The position numbers and the translations under genes were made by a program. The notes under the pieces are model-generated. The model searched no databases and was not told the origin of the DNA. It saw nothing but the letters and a program-made list of their open reading frames with translations. Of a stretch of 64,000 bases of DNA, positions 28,898 through 56,277 are shown one piece after another (within the stretch, counting starts at the first letter, position 1; the number at the start of each line of letters is the position of its first letter). Origin of the DNA: a virus (taxonomy: Duplodnaviria > Caudoviricetes); IMG/VR virus record IMGVR_UViG_3300037067_011041, positions 32,001 through 96,000 of that record; one strand, 5' to 3'.

Positions 28898-28970
28898 TGT
28901 GCGGTAGCTCAACCGGTAGAGCAACAGATTGTTAATCTGTGGAGTGTAGGTTCAAATCCTACCCGCGCAG
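28898..28970 (+). tRNA. tRNA-Asn(GTT)
   Basis: Acceptor TGTGCGG/CCGCGCA, D arm GCTC/GAGC, anticodon ACAGA-TTGTTAA-TCTGT, T arm GTAGG-TTCAAAT-CCTAC, G73; CCA not encoded. Confidence 0.92.
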
Positions 28971-28972
28971 CT

Positions 28973-29789: not shown

Positions 29790-29861
29790 AGTGGACGGGA
29801 GGCAAGGCGTCTTGCGGGCCTCATAAGCCCGTAGAGGTGGGTTCGATTCCCACGTCCACAA
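29790..29861 (+). tRNA. tRNA-Met(CAT), initiator-like
   Basis: Anticodon CGGGC-CTCATAA-GCCCG; T arm GTGGG-TTCGATT-CCCAC; 1:72 mismatch and A11:U24. Confidence 0.8.
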
Positions 29862-29863
29862 CT

Positions 29864-29933
29864 TGGAGGGGCATGGCGCGACCGGGTGGATGCTAGCGGC
29901 CCGGCATGGGTGGTTCAAATCCACGCCCTCCAG
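29864..29933 (+). ncRNA. D-armless tRNA-like element (possible Ser GCT or degenerate tRNA)
   Basis: Acceptor TGGAGGG/CCCTCCA + G; T arm GTGG-TTCAAAT-CCAC; central stem CCGGG/CCCGG with loop ATGCTAG. Confidence 0.55.
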
Positions 29934-33844: not shown

Positions 33845-34100
33845 TGTAGTATAACCTCTTCACAAGGATAAGACCGTGAGCTACAAAAGTAAAGAGCAGA
33901 AAGAAGCCGATCAAGCCATCAGAAACTGGCGGCGGGACCACCTGTTGGGTATTGTCAGATGGAGGAACGTACCTATTCCTCTTTCGATTGTAAACTCCAC
34001 TTACGACATCCCGCACACGCGGTACATTTACCGATACAAGGACGTCTACGTTTTTGGCGTCCGCGTAGCAAGAGTTCAATACTAACCCCGGAGGATCTCA

Positions 34101-35012
34101 ATGAGATCGAATTCGTCTTCTGTGCGTCCAATCATCTTGTCTTGTGTGGCGGTCGTTGCTTTGATCGTCGGCCTCATCATGGGTTGCAGTTCCTTTGAGG
34201 CGATCCCGGCCGGTAACGTCGGCGTGCCCACACTGTTCGGAAACGTGGTAGAGAAAGCCTACTCTGACGGCATGCACTTCCCCGTGAACCCGCTGTACTC
34301 GTGGACGCTGTACGACTGCCGACAAAAGAACCTTGATTGCCCGCAGATCCAGGTGCCTACGAAGGATCAGCAAACGTCGCAAATCGACTTCAGCGTACAG
34401 TACAGGATCGCAAGCACGTTGTGCCCGAAGGCCAAGTCGGAAATTGGCAACGCCGAAGACATCGTCTCTGTCCGAGTGCTGCCCAATCTCAGGTCGTTGG
34501 TTCGATCCGAAGGCAAAGGAGTAGCCCGCTGTGAAGACCTGTTTGATGAGGCTGTGCAGGCCGCGATGGAAGTCAACTTGCAGTCACGGTTGCAGCAAAA
34601 GGTTGGCGAGTACGTTGTCATCGAAGCTGTTCTAATTCGCAACGTCGCCCTGCCCGAGCATATCAAGGAGGCCATCAAGAGCAAGAAGGTTCGCGAGCAG
34701 AAGGCCGAGGAGCAGAAGGCCGAGTTGGCGCGGTTCGAGACCGAGCAGCAACAGAAGGTGAAGACGGCCCAAGCCGAACGCGAGGCCGCCGAGGAAGAGG
34801 CCAAGAAGGTCACCGTCATGGCGGATGCAGAGGCGTATGAGATCAAGGCAATCAATGCCGCACTGGCCGACAGCCCGAACTTCATCCGTCTTCGTGCCCT
34901 CGATACGCTCAACGAATTGTCCAAGAACCCGGCGACCCAGTTGTACTTCCTCAATGGCGACTCGCCCGACCCGCTTCCCTTGATGCACCTCGGTGCCCCT
35001 GTGACGAAATAG
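34101..35012 (+). CDS. Prohibitin/SPFH-family membrane protein
   Basis: TM anchor, IPAGNVGV, GMHFPVNP, VPTKDQQ, C-terminal coiled coil; GGAGG RBS. Confidence 0.9.
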   Translation: MRSNSSSVRPIILSCVAVVALIVGLIMGCSSFEAIPAGNVGVPTLFGNVVEKAYSDGMHFPVNPLYSWTLYDCRQKNLDCPQIQVPTKDQQTSQIDFSVQYRIASTLCPKAKSEIGNAEDIVSVRVLPNLRSLVRSEGKGVARCEDLFDEAVQAAMEVNLQSRLQQKVGEYVVIEAVLIRNVALPEHIKEAIKSKKVREQKAEEQKAELARFETEQQQKVKTAQAEREAAEEEAKKVTVMADAEAYEIKAINAALADSPNFIRLRALDTLNELSKNPATQLYFLNGDSPDPLPLMHLGAPVTK

Positions 35013-35051
35013 CGTAGTCTCGCTGTGGGCGACAGTCGTCGCCCGCAGTCT

Positions 35052-35137
35052 GGGTTGTGTCCCTCACGGCGGACTGTAAATCCGTTGTCATTAACTAGTG
35101 AGGTGGCTGACAAGAGGTTCAATTCCTTCACAACCCA
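35052..35137 (+). tRNA. Non-canonical tRNA-Tyr(GTA): 8/4 fold, no D stem, long variable arm
   Basis: GGGTTGTG/CACAACCC + A73; anticodon GCGGA-CTGTAAA-TCCGT; T arm GAGG-TTCAATT-CCTT; variable stem TGTCA/TGACA. Confidence 0.75.
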
Positions 35138-35238
35138 CTAACTTACAATGAGGTAGCTGTGAGCACACTTGATATACTGGCCATGTGCGGATCGTTCGTC
35201 TTAATCATGATGATTCCAATCCTGTCTCGGAGAATTCC

Positions 35239-35928
35239 GTGAACTTCAAGCGTAAGAAGATCCGTGGGCAGAACGCCAAGACCAAGCGAACCTGGATGGA
35301 TGATGACGGCAACTACCGCATCACATGGTCTACTGATATCGCCGGTATCAAGATGGATGCCCCTGTTATCCATGCGTGCGTTTTCACGGACTGGGGCTGG
35401 GGCTTCGCTGGTAAGCGGGGCCCCTACAAGACGGTGAAGGCGGCCAAGCAGGCTTGCGAGTTCAACAAGGAACTTTGGGATGCGTTCCTGTCTATGGAGG
35501 GCCGCGACAAGATAGCCCAGTACAATGTGCTGCGACACAAGTCGATGGTGGGCAGCGGTAAGAGCGCGGTGTCGGCCATGTCCGATATTCCATTGTGGGT
35601 GCTTGGGCTGGCCGATGAGCGGCAGTTGTCAATCATCTGCCCCAAAAGAAAAGGCGACGAATGCGATTACCAGGACGACCCTACGCCAATATCGAACATT
35701 TCAGACGCATCTACCCATGGTCAAAGTGGGGAAAGCCAATCAAGTACCCCTGTACCAGATGCTCCTGTGAAGGCTGCCCGGCGTGCAACGGCACGGGAAA
35801 AGGGACGAAAGAAGAACTCGAAGCCCTCTACAACAAAACGATCCGGGACTGGGAAGACGCGTACAAAGCGATCTACAAGTACAACCAGTTCATCGCGTCG
35901 CTCACGACAAAAGAAAGAGAAATCCTAG
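35239..35928 (+). CDS. Hypothetical protein with basic low-complexity tail overlapping next gene
   Basis: GGAG RBS and GTG start. Confidence 0.55.
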   Translation: MNFKRKKIRGQNAKTKRTWMDDDGNYRITWSTDIAGIKMDAPVIHACVFTDWGWGFAGKRGPYKTVKAAKQACEFNKELWDAFLSMEGRDKIAQYNVLRHKSMVGSGKSAVSAMSDIPLWVLGLADERQLSIICPKRKGDECDYQDDPTPISNISDASTHGQSGESQSSTPVPDAPVKAARRATAREKGRKKNSKPSTTKRSGTGKTRTKRSTSTTSSSRRSRQKKEKS

Positions 35929-35951
35929 TCAGCAGAGGTGTGACGCCATGA
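35661..35951 (+). CDS. Small DnaJ-type zinc-finger protein
   Basis: CTRC...CPACNGTG; ATGA-coupled to 35948-36343. Confidence 0.6.
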   Translation: MRLPGRPYANIEHFRRIYPWSKWGKPIKYPCTRCSCEGCPACNGTGKGTKEELEALYNKTIRDWEDAYKAIYKYNQFIASLTTKEREILVSRGVTP

Positions 35952-36342
35952 GTTTTGCCGACTTTTGCAAAGACAAGCTTGACGAACGAAACAAGACTAA
36001 CGAAGACGCGAGTCTCCGTGCCGCCGAGCGTCTAAGCATACTGATGCAGGCCGTAAGCTGTGTAGAAGACATCGGTTTGAAAGCGATCAAGGGCAACAAC
36101 TATTGGCAGCTTATCATTTGTACCTCGAATGTGGATTGGCGAGCCAGAATCGAACAAGGGGTGTTGAACGGCCGGGTATGGTCAGAGACATTTAATGGAG
36201 ACAAGTACCGAGTGAAACTATCGAACTCAAACGACCCTGGGTATGAATTCGATAGCTTCATAACTGAAGACCAGAAGGCCCTTAACCGCTGGGTGCGGAA
36301 CAAGCTGGCTGACTACGCTATCGACGCAGGGCTGATTAAGTA

Positions 36343-36762
36343 ATGGACCCAAAAAAGTTCCGCAGCAAGATGGGCCCGGAGGCCATAATCCAGAGGGACT
36401 TTATTGAGTACCTGACGCTGCGTGGCTGGCATGTTGAACGAATGATCGGCAACGCCCTGCAAATGGGCATCCCAGACATCTACATCATGCACTTTCAGCA
36501 TGGCAAGCGGTGGGTCGACCTGAAGAACCCGATCGATTACGAGTTCACGAAGGCGCAGAGAATCAAGTGGCCTATCTGGGAGAAGAACGGGACTGGAATC
36601 TGGATCATAACCGGAGCCACCGACGAAGAGTACGCCAAGCTGTGGCGACCGCCGAACTGGCGAGAGTATTGGAAACCTCGATACGACGAAGAGCAGCTAG
36701 AACTGGAAGAGGACTTGCGGTGGCTGTTCGATGAATTTCACGCGGAGAACGCAAATGAATAG
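36343..36762 (+). CDS. VRR-NUC-like PD-(D/E)xK endonuclease
   Basis: EAIIQ...GIPDIY...WVDLK...TKAQ. Confidence 0.8.
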   Translation: MDPKKFRSKMGPEAIIQRDFIEYLTLRGWHVERMIGNALQMGIPDIYIMHFQHGKRWVDLKNPIDYEFTKAQRIKWPIWEKNGTGIWIITGATDEEYAKLWRPPNWREYWKPRYDEEQLELEEDLRWLFDEFHAENANE

Positions 36763-56168: not shown

Positions 56169-56179
56169 CTTCTCTCCAG

Positions 56180-56277
56180 TGGAGGTGTCCGGAGTCGAAC
56201 CGGAATCCTAGCCGTACTCGCTACTTACACATGGGCCTTTTCGCTCAAACGCACGGTAGTCGAAACCTGTCACCCCC
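56180..56277 (-). ncRNA. Minimal tmRNA-like RNA (tRNA-like domain only, 98 nt)
   Basis: 5' GGGGGTGACAGGTTTCGAC; 3' TCCGG-TTCGACT-CCGGA-CACCTCC-A; G3:U70; P2-like helix. Confidence 0.8.

What the first reader, a model, noticed from the sequence alone, without database searches (positions are those of the whole stretch)
35052..35137. tRNA-Tyr(GUA) with 8/4 fold whose D arm may be replaced by a pseudoknot to the variable loop
Seen: 8-bp acceptor GGGTTGTG/CACAACCC, A73, 4-bp T stem, normal anticodon arm (CTGTAAA) and a 27-nt variable arm. Only 9 nt (TCCCTCACG) lie where the D arm should be, and CCTCAC (35062-67) is perfectly complementary to GTGAGG (35098-103) in the variable loop. Established: GUA, A73 and a long variable arm are bacterial TyrRS determinants. 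Inference: the variable loop supplies the missing D-stem strand, giving an alternative tRNA architecture that could resist host anti-tRNA nucleases or act as a decoy.
Basis: partly seen in the sequence, partly recalled or inferred. Interest (0 to 1): 0.8.

Follow-up and report, generated by a model that had tools for sequence, protein, structure and literature searches.

The report
Pseudoknotted phage tyrosine tRNA, no D-hairpin
This 86-base phage gene is very probably a working tyrosine tRNA that is not a cloverleaf: it has no D hairpin and builds that helix by pairing with a strand inside its variable arm. Many phages and a few bacteria share this design, gene finders miss it, and I found it in no paper.

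Summary
Window 35052-35137 (+) has an 8-bp acceptor stem, A73, a 4-bp T stem, a normal GUA anticodon arm and a 27-nt variable arm. Only 9 nt lie where the D arm belongs. CCUCAC (35062-67) is complementary to GUGAGG (35098-103).

The pairing is not chance. In 23 homologues chosen without regard to it, all six pairs form in every sequence and five show compensatory changes. In 79 homologues aligned without modelling this helix, 96% of cells pair. The variable stem covaries too, so the fold is a true pseudoknot. An invariant GG follows the helix and may mimic G18-G19.

The gene sits in phage tRNA arrays at normal spacing and fills the missing Tyr slot. In the cultured Pseudomonas phage SCYZ1 it follows a perfect promoter, in the slot where related phages carry an ordinary tRNA-Tyr. 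ARAGORN and Rfam miss it. The same scaffold occurs with UAU and UCU anticodons. Bacteria carry it only sporadically, beside a normal tRNA-Tyr.

Resistance to nucleases is plausible, because Septu/PtuAB cuts the variable arm of tRNA-Tyr, but it is untested. A decoy role is unlikely.

This scan has reported the same architecture several times on other DNA. I found no published description.

The parts
35052..35059 (+). Acceptor stem, 5' strand (GGGUUGUG), 8 nt; G1 pairs with C at 35136
   Evidence: The 8 pairs form in 99.5% of cells and all 8 covary in 79 homologues.
35060..35061 (+). Two-base linker UC. The U at 35060 is invariant in the family (U8-like). The second base is U in over 90% of members and C here.
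   Evidence: Invariant and nearly invariant columns of A2.
35062..35067 (+). CCUCAC, the strand that pairs with 35098-35103. It leads through G35068 straight into the anticodon stem, so by position and polarity it corresponds to the 3' strand of a normal D stem (inference).
   Evidence: 100% paired in 23 sequences with 5 of 6 pairs compensatory. 96.2% paired in 79 sequences on an alignment not fitted to this helix.
35068..35068 (+). Single G between the D-like helix and the anticodon stem (position-26-like)
35069..35085 (+). Anticodon arm: stem GCGGA/UCCGU (one G.U), loop CUGUAAA, anticodon GUA at 35076-35078, with U33, A37 and A38
   Evidence: All 5 stem pairs covary in the wider set.
35086..35090 (+). 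Variable-arm stem, 5' strand (UGUCA)
   Evidence: Pairs with 35108-35112. 93% paired and 3 of 4 modelled pairs show double changes.
35091..35097 (+). A/U-rich connector (UUAACUA) between the variable stem and the pseudoknot strand. Its length varies (about 4 to 14 nt) and it is A/U-rich across the family.
   Evidence: Alignments A2 and A4.
35098..35103 (+). GUGAGG, the partner strand of 35062-35067. It lies inside the variable-arm loop, so the helix crosses the variable stem and forms a pseudoknot.
35104..35107 (+). UGGC. The GG at 35105-35106 is invariant or nearly so, and directly follows the helix. I propose it stands in for D-loop G18-G19, which dock on the T loop (inference).
   Evidence: Invariant G55 and nearly invariant G54 (numbering of the window sequence) in A2. 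No search pattern forced these bases.
35108..35112 (+). Variable-arm stem, 3' strand (UGACA)
35113..35128 (+). Linker A35113, then the T arm: stem GAGG/CCUU (4 pairs, the outermost G.U) and loop UUCAAUU
   Evidence: The outermost pair covaries in the family (GC 31, GU 15, AU 7, CG 3, UA 1), but is U.U in one clade (22 sequences).
35129..35136 (+). Acceptor stem, 3' strand (CACAACCC)
35137..35137 (+). Discriminator A73. No CCA is encoded (CUA follows).
   Evidence: A is nearly invariant at this column. None of this phage's tRNA genes encodes CCA.
35027..35044 (+). Flanking hairpin GGGCGAC-AGUC-GUCGCCC between the stop codon of the Band-7 gene and the tRNA. It may be a 3' end or processing hairpin of the upstream mRNA (inference).
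   Evidence: A related strain carries G35027T together with C35044A, which turns a G-C pair into U-A.

Best explanation
Window 35052-35137 (+) is a gene for a tyrosine tRNA (anticodon GUA) with a non-cloverleaf architecture.

SHOWN. It has an 8-bp acceptor stem, a 4-bp T stem, a normal anticodon arm and a 5-bp variable-arm stem. A fifth helix of 6 bp forms between the strand that follows the acceptor stem (35062-67) and a strand in the variable-arm loop (35098-103). This helix crosses the variable stem, so the fold is a pseudoknot. All five helices are kept by compensatory changes in a family of at least 79 distinct sequences.

INFERRED. The 6-bp helix takes the place of the D stem and stacks on the anticodon stem through G35068. 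By polarity, 35062-67 plays the part of the D stem's 3' strand. GUGAGG plus the invariant GG (35105-06) plays the part of the 5' strand plus the G18-G19 of the D loop. So the D arm is re-threaded rather than lost. Moving the acceptor/T junction by one pair (8/4 instead of 7/5) would let the short UC linker reach the far end of that helix.

LIKELY LIFE CYCLE (inferred). The RNA is transcribed with the + strand replication genes (DNA polymerase, exonuclease, Band-7, NUDIX). Host RNase P and 3' nucleases cut it out. The host enzyme adds CCA. Host TyrRS charges it through G1-C72, A73 and G34-U35-A36. EF-Tu carries it by its 12-bp acceptor/T stack, and it reads UAY codons during infection.

WHY THIS FOLD is open. 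The leading idea is escape from host nucleases that recognise the normal variable arm or D arm of tRNA-Tyr.
For: STRUCTURE.
- 23 homologues chosen only by anticodon arm plus T loop. The helix is 100% paired and 5 of 6 pairs have double changes.
- 79 distinct members aligned to a model that does not contain this helix. It is 96.2% paired, 5 of 6 pairs are compensatory, and sliding the partner by one column drops overall pairing from 96.5% to 47-49%.
- Variable stem: 93% paired and 3 of 4 pairs covary.
- The GG is invariant.

A REAL GENE.
- A related strain's contig has 14 differences across 34824-35142, none inside 35052-35137 and 5 in the 26 nt just upstream. It diverges completely after 35142.
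- Covariance model R1 scores family members 67-97 bits (window 94.0) and ordinary tRNAs at most 36 bits.

A tRNA FOR TYROSINE.
- 65 of 96 occurrences have a same-strand tRNA within 300 nt.
- Of 24 loci with 15 or more tRNAs, only 3 have another GUA call.
- L013, from a 278-kb phage, has 27 tRNAs for 19 amino acids and lacks only Tyr.
- In five whole phage records of 80-278 kb, the variant is the only gene matching CTGTAAA...GTTCRA.
- In cultured phage SCYZ1 it lies 20 nt after a 12/12 sigma-70 promoter with a TG extension, and directly before tRNA-Pro and terS. Related phage PaCe has an annotated cloverleaf tRNA-Tyr in that slot.
- G1-C72 occurs in 66 of 79 members and A73 is nearly invariant. 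These are the bacterial tyrosine identity elements, together with U35 (PMC9976931).
- Whether CCA is encoded follows the host's own tRNA-Tyr gene in four bacterial genomes.
Against: - There is no expression, processing, charging or decoding evidence.
- In this window the gene stands alone, about 5 kb from tRNA-Asn and tRNA-Met. It has no promoter-like or terminator-like site within 450 bases and no encoded CCA.
- The usual D-loop tertiary partners (A14, G15, G18-G19, A21) are absent as such. That they are replaced is my inference from sequence conservation, not from a structure.
- One clade has U.U at the outermost T-stem pair.
- Planctomycetaceae copies have A1-U72.
- Bacteria that carry the variant also keep an ordinary tRNA-Tyr, so no cell is known to depend on the variant.
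- Rfam's tRNA model does not reach threshold and ARAGORN rejects it.
Confidence: 0.75

Rival explanations
1. The fold is as described, and its purpose is counter-defence. It would be a working tRNA-Tyr whose variable arm and D region are remodelled so that host tRNA-Tyr-directed nucleases (Septu or retron-Eco7 PtuAB type, or others that read the tRNA core) cannot cut it. Translation of UAY codons would then continue after the host's tRNA-Tyr is destroyed. This refines the best explanation rather than replacing it.
For: Septu and retron-Eco7 PtuAB cleave E. coli tRNA-Tyr at C48/A49 in the variable-arm stem, and T5 tRNA-Tyr is reported resistant because of its distinctive variable loop (PMC13096335; PMC11555353). 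In this family the variable arm is the most altered part and is locked in a pseudoknot. This phage carries only a handful of tRNAs. That fits a targeted rescue role at least as well as it fits codon supply.
Against: Nothing was tested here. The same scaffold carries UAU and UCU anticodons, whose ordinary counterparts have short variable loops. A few bacteria keep the variant among ordinary chromosomal genes. The host of this phage and its defences are unknown.
Confidence: 0.3
2. It is a decoy or sponge. On this reading it is a tRNA-like RNA that is not used in translation but binds a host factor (a nuclease, TyrRS or a modification enzyme).
For: The fold is unusual. The anticodon loop is fully conserved, and an anticodon-directed nuclease would recognise it.
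Against: A decoy would not need G1-C72 and A73, an encoded CCA in most members, or a covarying 12-bp acceptor/T stack. Nor would it need to be the only GUA gene in arrays that cover the other 19 amino acids. It also replaces an ordinary tRNA-Tyr by position in Pseudomonas phages.
Confidence: 0.07
3. It is a decaying tRNA-Tyr pseudogene or an integration-site remnant. It would have lost its D arm, and the 6-bp complementarity would be fortuitous.
For: ARAGORN and Rfam reject it. In this window it stands alone and lacks CCA.
Against: All five helices covary, including the pseudoknot helix. The element is perfectly conserved in a diverged strain while its flanks change. The phage has no tyrosine integrase. 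The family separates sharply from ordinary tRNAs.
Confidence: 0.02

Closest known systems
Canonical bacterial and phage class II tRNA-Tyr(GUA) (Rfam RF00005 cloverleaf). Examples are the annotated tRNA-Tyr of Pseudomonas phage vB_PaeP_PaCe (L169:440-526) and the ordinary tRNA-Tyr genes of the bacteria that also carry the variant (L053, L058).
   Same: GUA anticodon in a CUGUAAA-type loop, G1-C72, A73, a long variable region, a GGUUCAAnUCC T loop, a 12-bp acceptor/T stack, and a place inside tRNA arrays. In SCYZ1 it holds the same syntenic slot before tRNA-Pro and terS.
   Different: It has no D hairpin. Nine bases replace about 17. The D-like helix forms with a strand from the variable-arm loop, which makes a pseudoknot. 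The stems are 8/4 instead of 7/5. It scores below the Rfam threshold, and ARAGORN misses it in 94 of 96 cases.
The 8/4 and 9/3 tRNAs of Mukai et al. 2017 (PMC5389517): allo-tRNAs and the (8/4) tRNA-Ser and tRNA-His of bacteria and alpha-proteobacterial phages
   Same: A 12-bp acceptor branch split 8/4, presence in phage tRNA clusters, a resemblance to tRNA-Sec for search tools (the best Rfam match here is RF01852), and a long variable arm.
   Different: That paper reports Ser, His, Cys and Sec types. It describes no Tyr species (its only 'Tyr' is in a cited reference) and never uses the word pseudoknot. From my own knowledge, those tRNAs keep a D arm.
D-armless mitochondrial tRNAs (for example Ascaris suum and mammalian mt-tRNA-Ser; review PMC7609411)
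   Same: No D hairpin, with a short connector between the acceptor and anticodon stems.
   Different: Those are reduced, flexible organellar tRNAs served by adapted factors, and no helix replaces the D stem. Here a covarying 6-bp helix and a GG motif replace the arm, and the setting is bacterial translation. [quoted passage not shown]
Tyrosine-accepting tRNA-like structures of plant RNA viruses (BMV TLS-Tyr)
   Same: A viral, pseudoknotted, non-cloverleaf RNA that presents A73, U35 and A36 to TyrRS (PMC9976931).
   Different: A TLS is the 3' end of an RNA genome, is not used for decoding, and uses the eukaryotic C1-G72 identity. The element here is a free-standing gene in DNA phages, with a full anticodon arm, sitting in tRNA arrays.
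The same rewired architecture with other anticodons: Ile-type UAU (L065, L066, L071, L074, L093, L151) and Arg-type UCU (L068, L079, L104, L106, L133, L140). These were found here and in earlier notes of this scan; I found them in no paper.
   Same: The same order of parts, an 8-bp acceptor, a UU linker, a 6-nt strand paired to the variable loop, the GG, and R1 scores of 67-84 bits.
   Different: Different anticodon and acceptor sequences and a shorter connector. The Ile-type copies mostly stand alone in their loci.

Membership tests
Elongator tRNA, cloverleaf (Rfam RF00005; ARAGORN model) | Acceptor stem closed by a discriminator base; T arm with a GTTCRA-type 7-nt loop | tested here: met
   8 bp plus A73; GAGG/UUCAAUU/CCUU. 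The pairs covary. The split is 8/4, not 7/5.
Elongator tRNA, cloverleaf (Rfam RF00005; ARAGORN model) | Anticodon arm: 5-bp stem, 7-nt loop with U33 and a purine at 37 | tested here: met
   GCGGA/CUGUAAA/UCCGU.
Elongator tRNA, cloverleaf (Rfam RF00005; ARAGORN model) | D arm as a local hairpin between positions 10 and 25 | tested here: not met
   Only 9 nt (35060-68) lie there and they form no local hairpin.
Elongator tRNA, cloverleaf (Rfam RF00005; ARAGORN model) | Reaches the curated score or is called by the finder | tested here: not met
   No Rfam match at gathering score. ARAGORN is silent here and in 94 of 96 family occurrences.
Bacterial tRNA-Tyr (identity set for TyrRS) | A73, U35 (with G34 and A36) and G1-C72 (PMC9976931) | tested here: met
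   G35052-C35136, A35137 and GUA at 35076-78. In the family, G1-C72 occurs in 66 of 79 and A73 is nearly invariant.
Bacterial tRNA-Tyr (identity set for TyrRS) | Long variable arm presented as in class II tRNAs | tested here: inconclusive
   A 27-nt variable arm with a 5-bp stem is present, but its loop is tied into the pseudoknot. Its orientation cannot be judged without a structure.
Bacterial tRNA-Tyr (identity set for TyrRS) | Charged with tyrosine and reads UAY codons | not testable with these tools
   Support is indirect only: it fills the Tyr gap in arrays and shares its slot with an annotated tRNA-Tyr.
tRNA-Sec (Rfam RF01852) | Gathering score of 47 bits; UCA anticodon; 13-bp acceptor branch (8/5 in bacteria); 6-bp D stem | tested here: not met
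   29.8 bits, with the D region of the model skipped. The anticodon is GUA and the branch is 8/4.
(8/4) tRNAs of Mukai et al. 2017 | 12-bp acceptor branch split 8/4 | tested here: met
(8/4) tRNAs of Mukai et al. 2017 | Ser, His, Cys or Sec identity with an otherwise complete cloverleaf | tested here: not met
   GUA anticodon with A73 and no D hairpin. The paper lists no Tyr species.
Rewired (pseudoknotted, D-hairpin-less) tRNA family as defined here by model R1 | High score to R1, well separated from ordinary tRNAs | tested here: met
   94.0 bits. Family members score 67-97 bits and ordinary tRNAs in the same loci at most 36. The window sequence was part of the seed alignment.
Rewired (pseudoknotted, D-hairpin-less) tRNA family as defined here by model R1 | 6-bp helix between the post-acceptor strand and the variable-arm loop, followed by GG | tested here: met
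   35062-67 pairs with 35098-103, and GG lies at 35105-06. Covariation.

The most novel reading that the evidence does not exclude
Bacterial translation in nature accepts a second tRNA architecture. In it the D arm is re-threaded: its two strands lie on either side of the anticodon arm and the fold is closed as a pseudoknot through the variable arm. Phages use this scaffold for at least three anticodons (GUA, UAU, UCU) and some bacteria have picked it up. It would have spread because it is invisible to host nucleases that recognise the normal tRNA core or variable arm, such as Septu/PtuAB acting on tRNA-Tyr.
Probability: 0.3. Interest if true: 0.9.

Novelty: new variant of a known kind. Interest (0 to 1): 0.8.

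Why it matters
Textbooks and recent papers treat the cloverleaf as universal outside organelles. One 2024 paper says that all known bacterial tRNAs adopt it (PMC11551756).

A natural, conserved, non-cloverleaf tRNA that host RNase P, the CCA-adding enzyme, TyrRS, EF-Tu and the ribosome must all accept would show how much of the tRNA core these machines really read.

It would also offer a ready-made orthogonal scaffold for genetic-code engineering. It would explain an apparent gap in phage tRNA sets, where tyrosine seems to be missing. And it shows that standard annotation tools systematically miss a class of tRNA genes.

It connects to a current topic, the arms race over tRNA-Tyr between phages and the Septu and retron defences. 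The presence of the gene in a cultured phage-host pair (SCYZ1 on Pseudomonas fluorescens) makes all of this directly testable.

Tried and rejected
- SIMILARITY TO CULTURED PHAGES. blastn of window 34000-36500 against cultured phages found nothing. blastn of the commoner family type (L003 element) against them also found nothing. SCYZ1 is therefore the only cultured carrier I found.
- EXPRESSION. No RNA holder is listed. The four wastewater runs labelled RNA-Seq are probably DNA and are kept only as contigs. They gave strain variation, not expression.
- PHAGE-ENCODED HELPERS. G000 has no CCA-adding enzyme (PF01743) and no tyrosine integrase (PF00589).
- SHARED GENE CONTEXT. tblastn of all G000 reading frames of 100 aa or more against the bacterial loci and SCYZ1 gave no hits.
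- MFE EXTENSION. The predicted extension GUC/GGC (35059-61 with 35105-07) is not conserved, because other members have UU there, and it would use up the invariant GG. I rejected it.
- LOOK-ALIKES THAT ARE NOT MEMBERS. The 90-nt ARAGORN 'tRNA-Ile(tat)' calls in L010, L013, L014, L019 and L021 have ordinary D arms. L008 is a different odd GUA tRNA (35 bits), and I left it out of alignment A1 for that reason. The ARAGORN 'tRNA-Tyr' of L017 and L024 is a class II cloverleaf with loop AUGUAGA.
- OTHER COPIES IN THIS PHAGE. A descriptor scan of the whole phage found no second rewired tRNA.
- LITERATURE. Eight searches and nine papers opened gave no description of this fold. The library lacks most subscription journals, so this is not proof of absence.

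Full report
THE OBSERVATION

The window is bases 32001-96000 of a 117,327-bp IMG/VR virus record that CheckV rates complete.
- The acceptor stem GGGTTGTG/CACAACCC has 8 bp and is followed by A35137. No CCA is encoded.
- Only nine bases (TCCCTCACG) lie before the anticodon stem.
- The anticodon arm is regular, GCGGA-CTGTAAA-TCCGT, with anticodon GTA at 35076-78.
- The variable arm is 27 nt, with stem TGTCA/TGACA and a 17-nt loop.
- The T arm is GAGG-TTCAATT-CCTT, four pairs of which one is G.U.
- CCTCAC (35062-67) is the exact complement of GTGAGG (35098-103).

ARAGORN does not call the element. Rfam finds nothing at gathering scores. At relaxed thresholds the best match is tRNA-Sec, at 29.8 bits against a cut-off of 47, with the D region of the model skipped. 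The minimum-free-energy fold forms the 6-bp helix. By my arithmetic, such a complement would arise by chance about 3 times in 1000.

A CONSERVED FAMILY, AND THE HELIX IS REAL

A blastn hit led to an unannotated homologue in Pseudomonas phage SCYZ1. I then scanned IMG/VR with a pattern that fixes only the anticodon arm and the T loop, with a long gap between them. That gave 29 loci. All but one (L008, a different odd tRNA) have the same layout.

In the 23 distinct sequences (A1) the proposed helix is paired in every sequence. Five of its six pairs show changes on both sides, for example CCCUAC/GUAGGG, CUCUAC/GUAGAG, CCCAAC/GUUGGG and CCUAGC/GCUAGG.

It gave the same result.

To avoid fitting the alignment to the claim, I built a covariance model that contains only the four nested helices (R1). 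I aligned 79 distinct members to it and then counted the helix that the model does not contain.
- 96.2% of its cells are paired and five of six pairs are compensatory.
- One position shows CG 23, UA 22, AU 9, GU 9, GC 8 and UG 6.
- Overall pairing falls from 96.5% to 47-49% when partners are slid by one column.
- The few unpaired cells come from members that have one extra U between the helix and the GG, which shifts them by a column.

The variable-arm stem also covaries (93% paired, three of four pairs with double changes). Both helices therefore exist, and since they cross, the fold is a pseudoknot. The outermost T-stem pair covaries as well (GC, GU, AU, CG, UA), which supports the 8/4 reading, although one clade has U.U there.

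READING THE ARCHITECTURE (INFERENCE)

The strand 35062-67 runs through a single G into the 5' strand of the anticodon stem. This is what the 3' strand of a normal D stem does through position 26. Its partner, 35098-103, is followed at once by a GG. This GG is invariant although no search pattern required it. A normal D stem's 5' strand likewise runs into the D loop that holds G18-G19.

So the D arm looks re-threaded rather than deleted. Its two strands lie on either side of the anticodon arm, and the GG is placed where it could dock on the T loop. The invariant U after the acceptor stem is a candidate U8. With the acceptor/T junction moved one pair towards the elbow (8/4), a two-base linker could reach the far end of the 6-bp helix. 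None of this can be checked without a structure.

IS IT A GENE, AND IS IT THE Tyr tRNA?

Evidence that it is a gene:
- A related strain's contig from a wastewater run covers 34824-35142 with 14 differences. None lies inside 35052-35137, five lie in the 26 bases just upstream, and the sequence is unrelated after 35142. The limits of conservation are thus the limits of the tRNA.
- Model R1 separates the family (67-97 bits; window 94.0) from the hundreds of ordinary tRNAs in the same loci (36 bits or less).

Evidence that it is the tyrosine tRNA:
- The gene lies in phage tRNA arrays at ordinary spacing. 65 of 96 occurrences have a same-strand tRNA within 300 nt, yet ARAGORN calls only 2 of the 96.
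- Arrays that cover nearly all amino acids lack a called tRNA-Tyr. Of 24 loci with 15 or more tRNAs, only 3 have another GUA call. The L013 locus of a 278-kb phage has 27 tRNAs for 19 amino acids, all but Tyr.
- In five whole phage records of 80-278 kb, the variant is the only gene matching CTGTAAA...GTTCRA.
- In SCYZ1 it lies 20 nt after a perfect sigma-70 promoter with a TG extension, and directly before tRNA-Pro and the small terminase gene. In the related Pseudomonas phage PaCe the same slot holds an annotated cloverleaf tRNA-Tyr.
- A published survey that ran ARAGORN and tRNAscan-SE on these phages lists only tRNA-Pro for SCYZ1 (PMC8540360). tRNAscan-SE therefore missed it too.
- G1-C72, A73 and G34-U35-A36 are the bacterial tyrosine identity elements (PMC9976931), and the family conserves them.

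BEYOND PHAGES AND BEYOND Tyr

A scan of one genome per prokaryotic species found eight members in bacterial assemblies: Phycisphaerae, Planctomycetaceae, Leptospirales, Alteromonadaceae, Anaerolineales and Flavobacterium.
- In the Planctomycetaceae chromosome and in a Phycisphaerae MAG, the neighbouring genes are ordinary cell genes, not prophage genes.
- Four genomes that carry the variant were checked, and each also has an ordinary tRNA-Tyr. A fifth (G005, L047) has an ordinary tRNA-Tyr beside a different long-variable-arm GUA gene.
- Only 6 of 401 sampled genomes of that phylum match the long-gap GUA pattern, 5 of them family-like. In cells the variant is therefore a sporadic extra copy.
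- Whether CCA is encoded follows the host's own tRNA-Tyr gene, as expected for an RNA processed like other tRNAs.
- The window's copy is closest (82%) to a Phycisphaerae copy. None of this phage's tRNA genes encodes CCA, and the phage has no CCA-adding enzyme. It must therefore rely on the host enzyme.

The same scaffold also occurs with UAU (6 distinct) and UCU (6 distinct) anticodons, with covarying helices. It is a general alternative scaffold, not a peculiarity of tRNA-Tyr.

WHY THIS FOLD?

This question is untested. Septu and retron-Eco7 PtuAB cut tRNA-Tyr in the variable-arm stem, and T5 tRNA-Tyr escapes through a different variable loop (PMC13096335, PMC11555353). A Tyr tRNA whose variable arm is rebuilt and knotted is therefore a reasonable escape form. 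I put this at about 0.3, because the Ile-type and Arg-type members and the chromosomal copies call for a wider explanation. A decoy role is unlikely, for the reasons given under the rival explanations.

COMPARISON WITH WHAT IS KNOWN

- Mukai et al. 2017 describe 8/4 and 9/3 tRNAs in bacteria and phages (Ser, His, Cys and Sec types), but describe no Tyr species and never use the word pseudoknot.
- The 2020 review of non-canonical tRNAs lists D-armless tRNAs only in mitochondria.
- A 2024 paper states that all known bacterial tRNAs are cloverleaves.
- Plant-virus TLS-Tyr is a pseudoknotted tyrosine acceptor, but it is not a decoding tRNA.
- Further searches found nothing.

Earlier notes of this scan report the same Tyr architecture in at least eight other genomes, and the Ile and Arg forms in several more. 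I reached my reading before opening those notes and tested it independently. They agree with it but are not independent evidence.

VERDICT

The structural interpretation is supported. The tRNA-Tyr function is very probable (0.75) but unproven. The nuclease-evasion purpose is open. I rate this a new structural variant of a known kind of molecule, of high interest.

Noticed in passing
window 56177-56277 (-): A 101-nt tmRNA-like gene (Rfam RF00023, 49.3 bits against a cut-off of 47) that spans model positions 1-374. It joins the 5' and 3' ends of a tmRNA (the tRNA-like domain, with a perfect 7/5 acceptor/T arm) through only about 60 nt, and ARAGORN reports no tag reading frame. It ends ACUG, not ACCA. 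It may be a mini-tmRNA or a domain-only mimic.
   Followed up: partly
window 29865-29931 (+): A tRNA-like element lies 2 nt after tRNA-Met. It has an acceptor-like stem with one bulged G and a T arm GUGG/UUCAAAU/CCAC, but no recognisable 7-nt anticodon loop. RF01852 scores it 19.7 bits and ARAGORN is silent. Its fold is no better than shuffles (z = -0.9).
   Followed up: partly
window 35027-35044 (+): Hairpin GGGCGAC-AGUC-GUCGCCC between the stop codon of the Band-7 gene and the tRNA. A related strain has G35027T together with C35044A, a compensatory change in its closing pair. It may be an mRNA 3' end or a processing hairpin.
   Followed up: partly
L065:504-589, L066:1163-1252, L071:8611-8697, L093:4434-4520 (UAU); L068:8691-8777, L079:2466-2551, L104:2459-2544, L106:12596-12681, L133:7571-7658, L140:1820-1904 (UCU): The same rewired architecture carries Ile-type (UAU) and Arg-type (UCU) anticodons. 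The UAU copies mostly stand alone in their contigs, while some UCU copies lie in arrays that have no other UCU tRNA.
   Followed up: partly
L045:2773-2863 (Planctomycetaceae chromosome CP030884.1); L039:1794-1883 (Phycisphaerae MAG): Bacterial chromosomal copies of the rewired tRNA-Tyr lie among ordinary genes (sulfate permease, chemotaxis MCP/CheR, serpin, aldose epimerase), beside a normal tRNA-Tyr elsewhere in the genome. The Planctomycetaceae copies have A1-U72.
   Followed up: partly
L096:724-826 (-): A 103-nt match to model R1 at 43 bits, between the family (67 or more) and ordinary tRNAs (36 or less). It lies right beside a full family member, so it may be a divergent second copy.
   Followed up: no
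L017:4399-4486 (-) and L024:10753-10841 (+): ARAGORN's 'tRNA-Tyr' in phages that also carry the rewired gene is a class II cloverleaf with the loop AUGUAGA (G at position 37) and a non-A discriminator. Its identity is unclear.
   Followed up: no
L008:7395-7479 (-): Another odd GUA tRNA with a short region GTTTAAACGA in place of a normal D arm and a long, regular variable hairpin. It has no pseudoknot complement, scores 35 bits to R1, and is called tRNA-Tyr by ARAGORN.
   Followed up: no
window 28898-28971, 29790-29862, 35052-35137; G000 108282-108356 (-): This 117-kb phage carries only tRNA-Asn(GUU), tRNA-Met(CAU), tRNA-Leu(UAG) and the rewired tRNA-Tyr. None encodes CCA, and ACUA follows both the Tyr and the Leu gene. 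tRNA-Met falls below Rfam's gathering score.
   Followed up: partly
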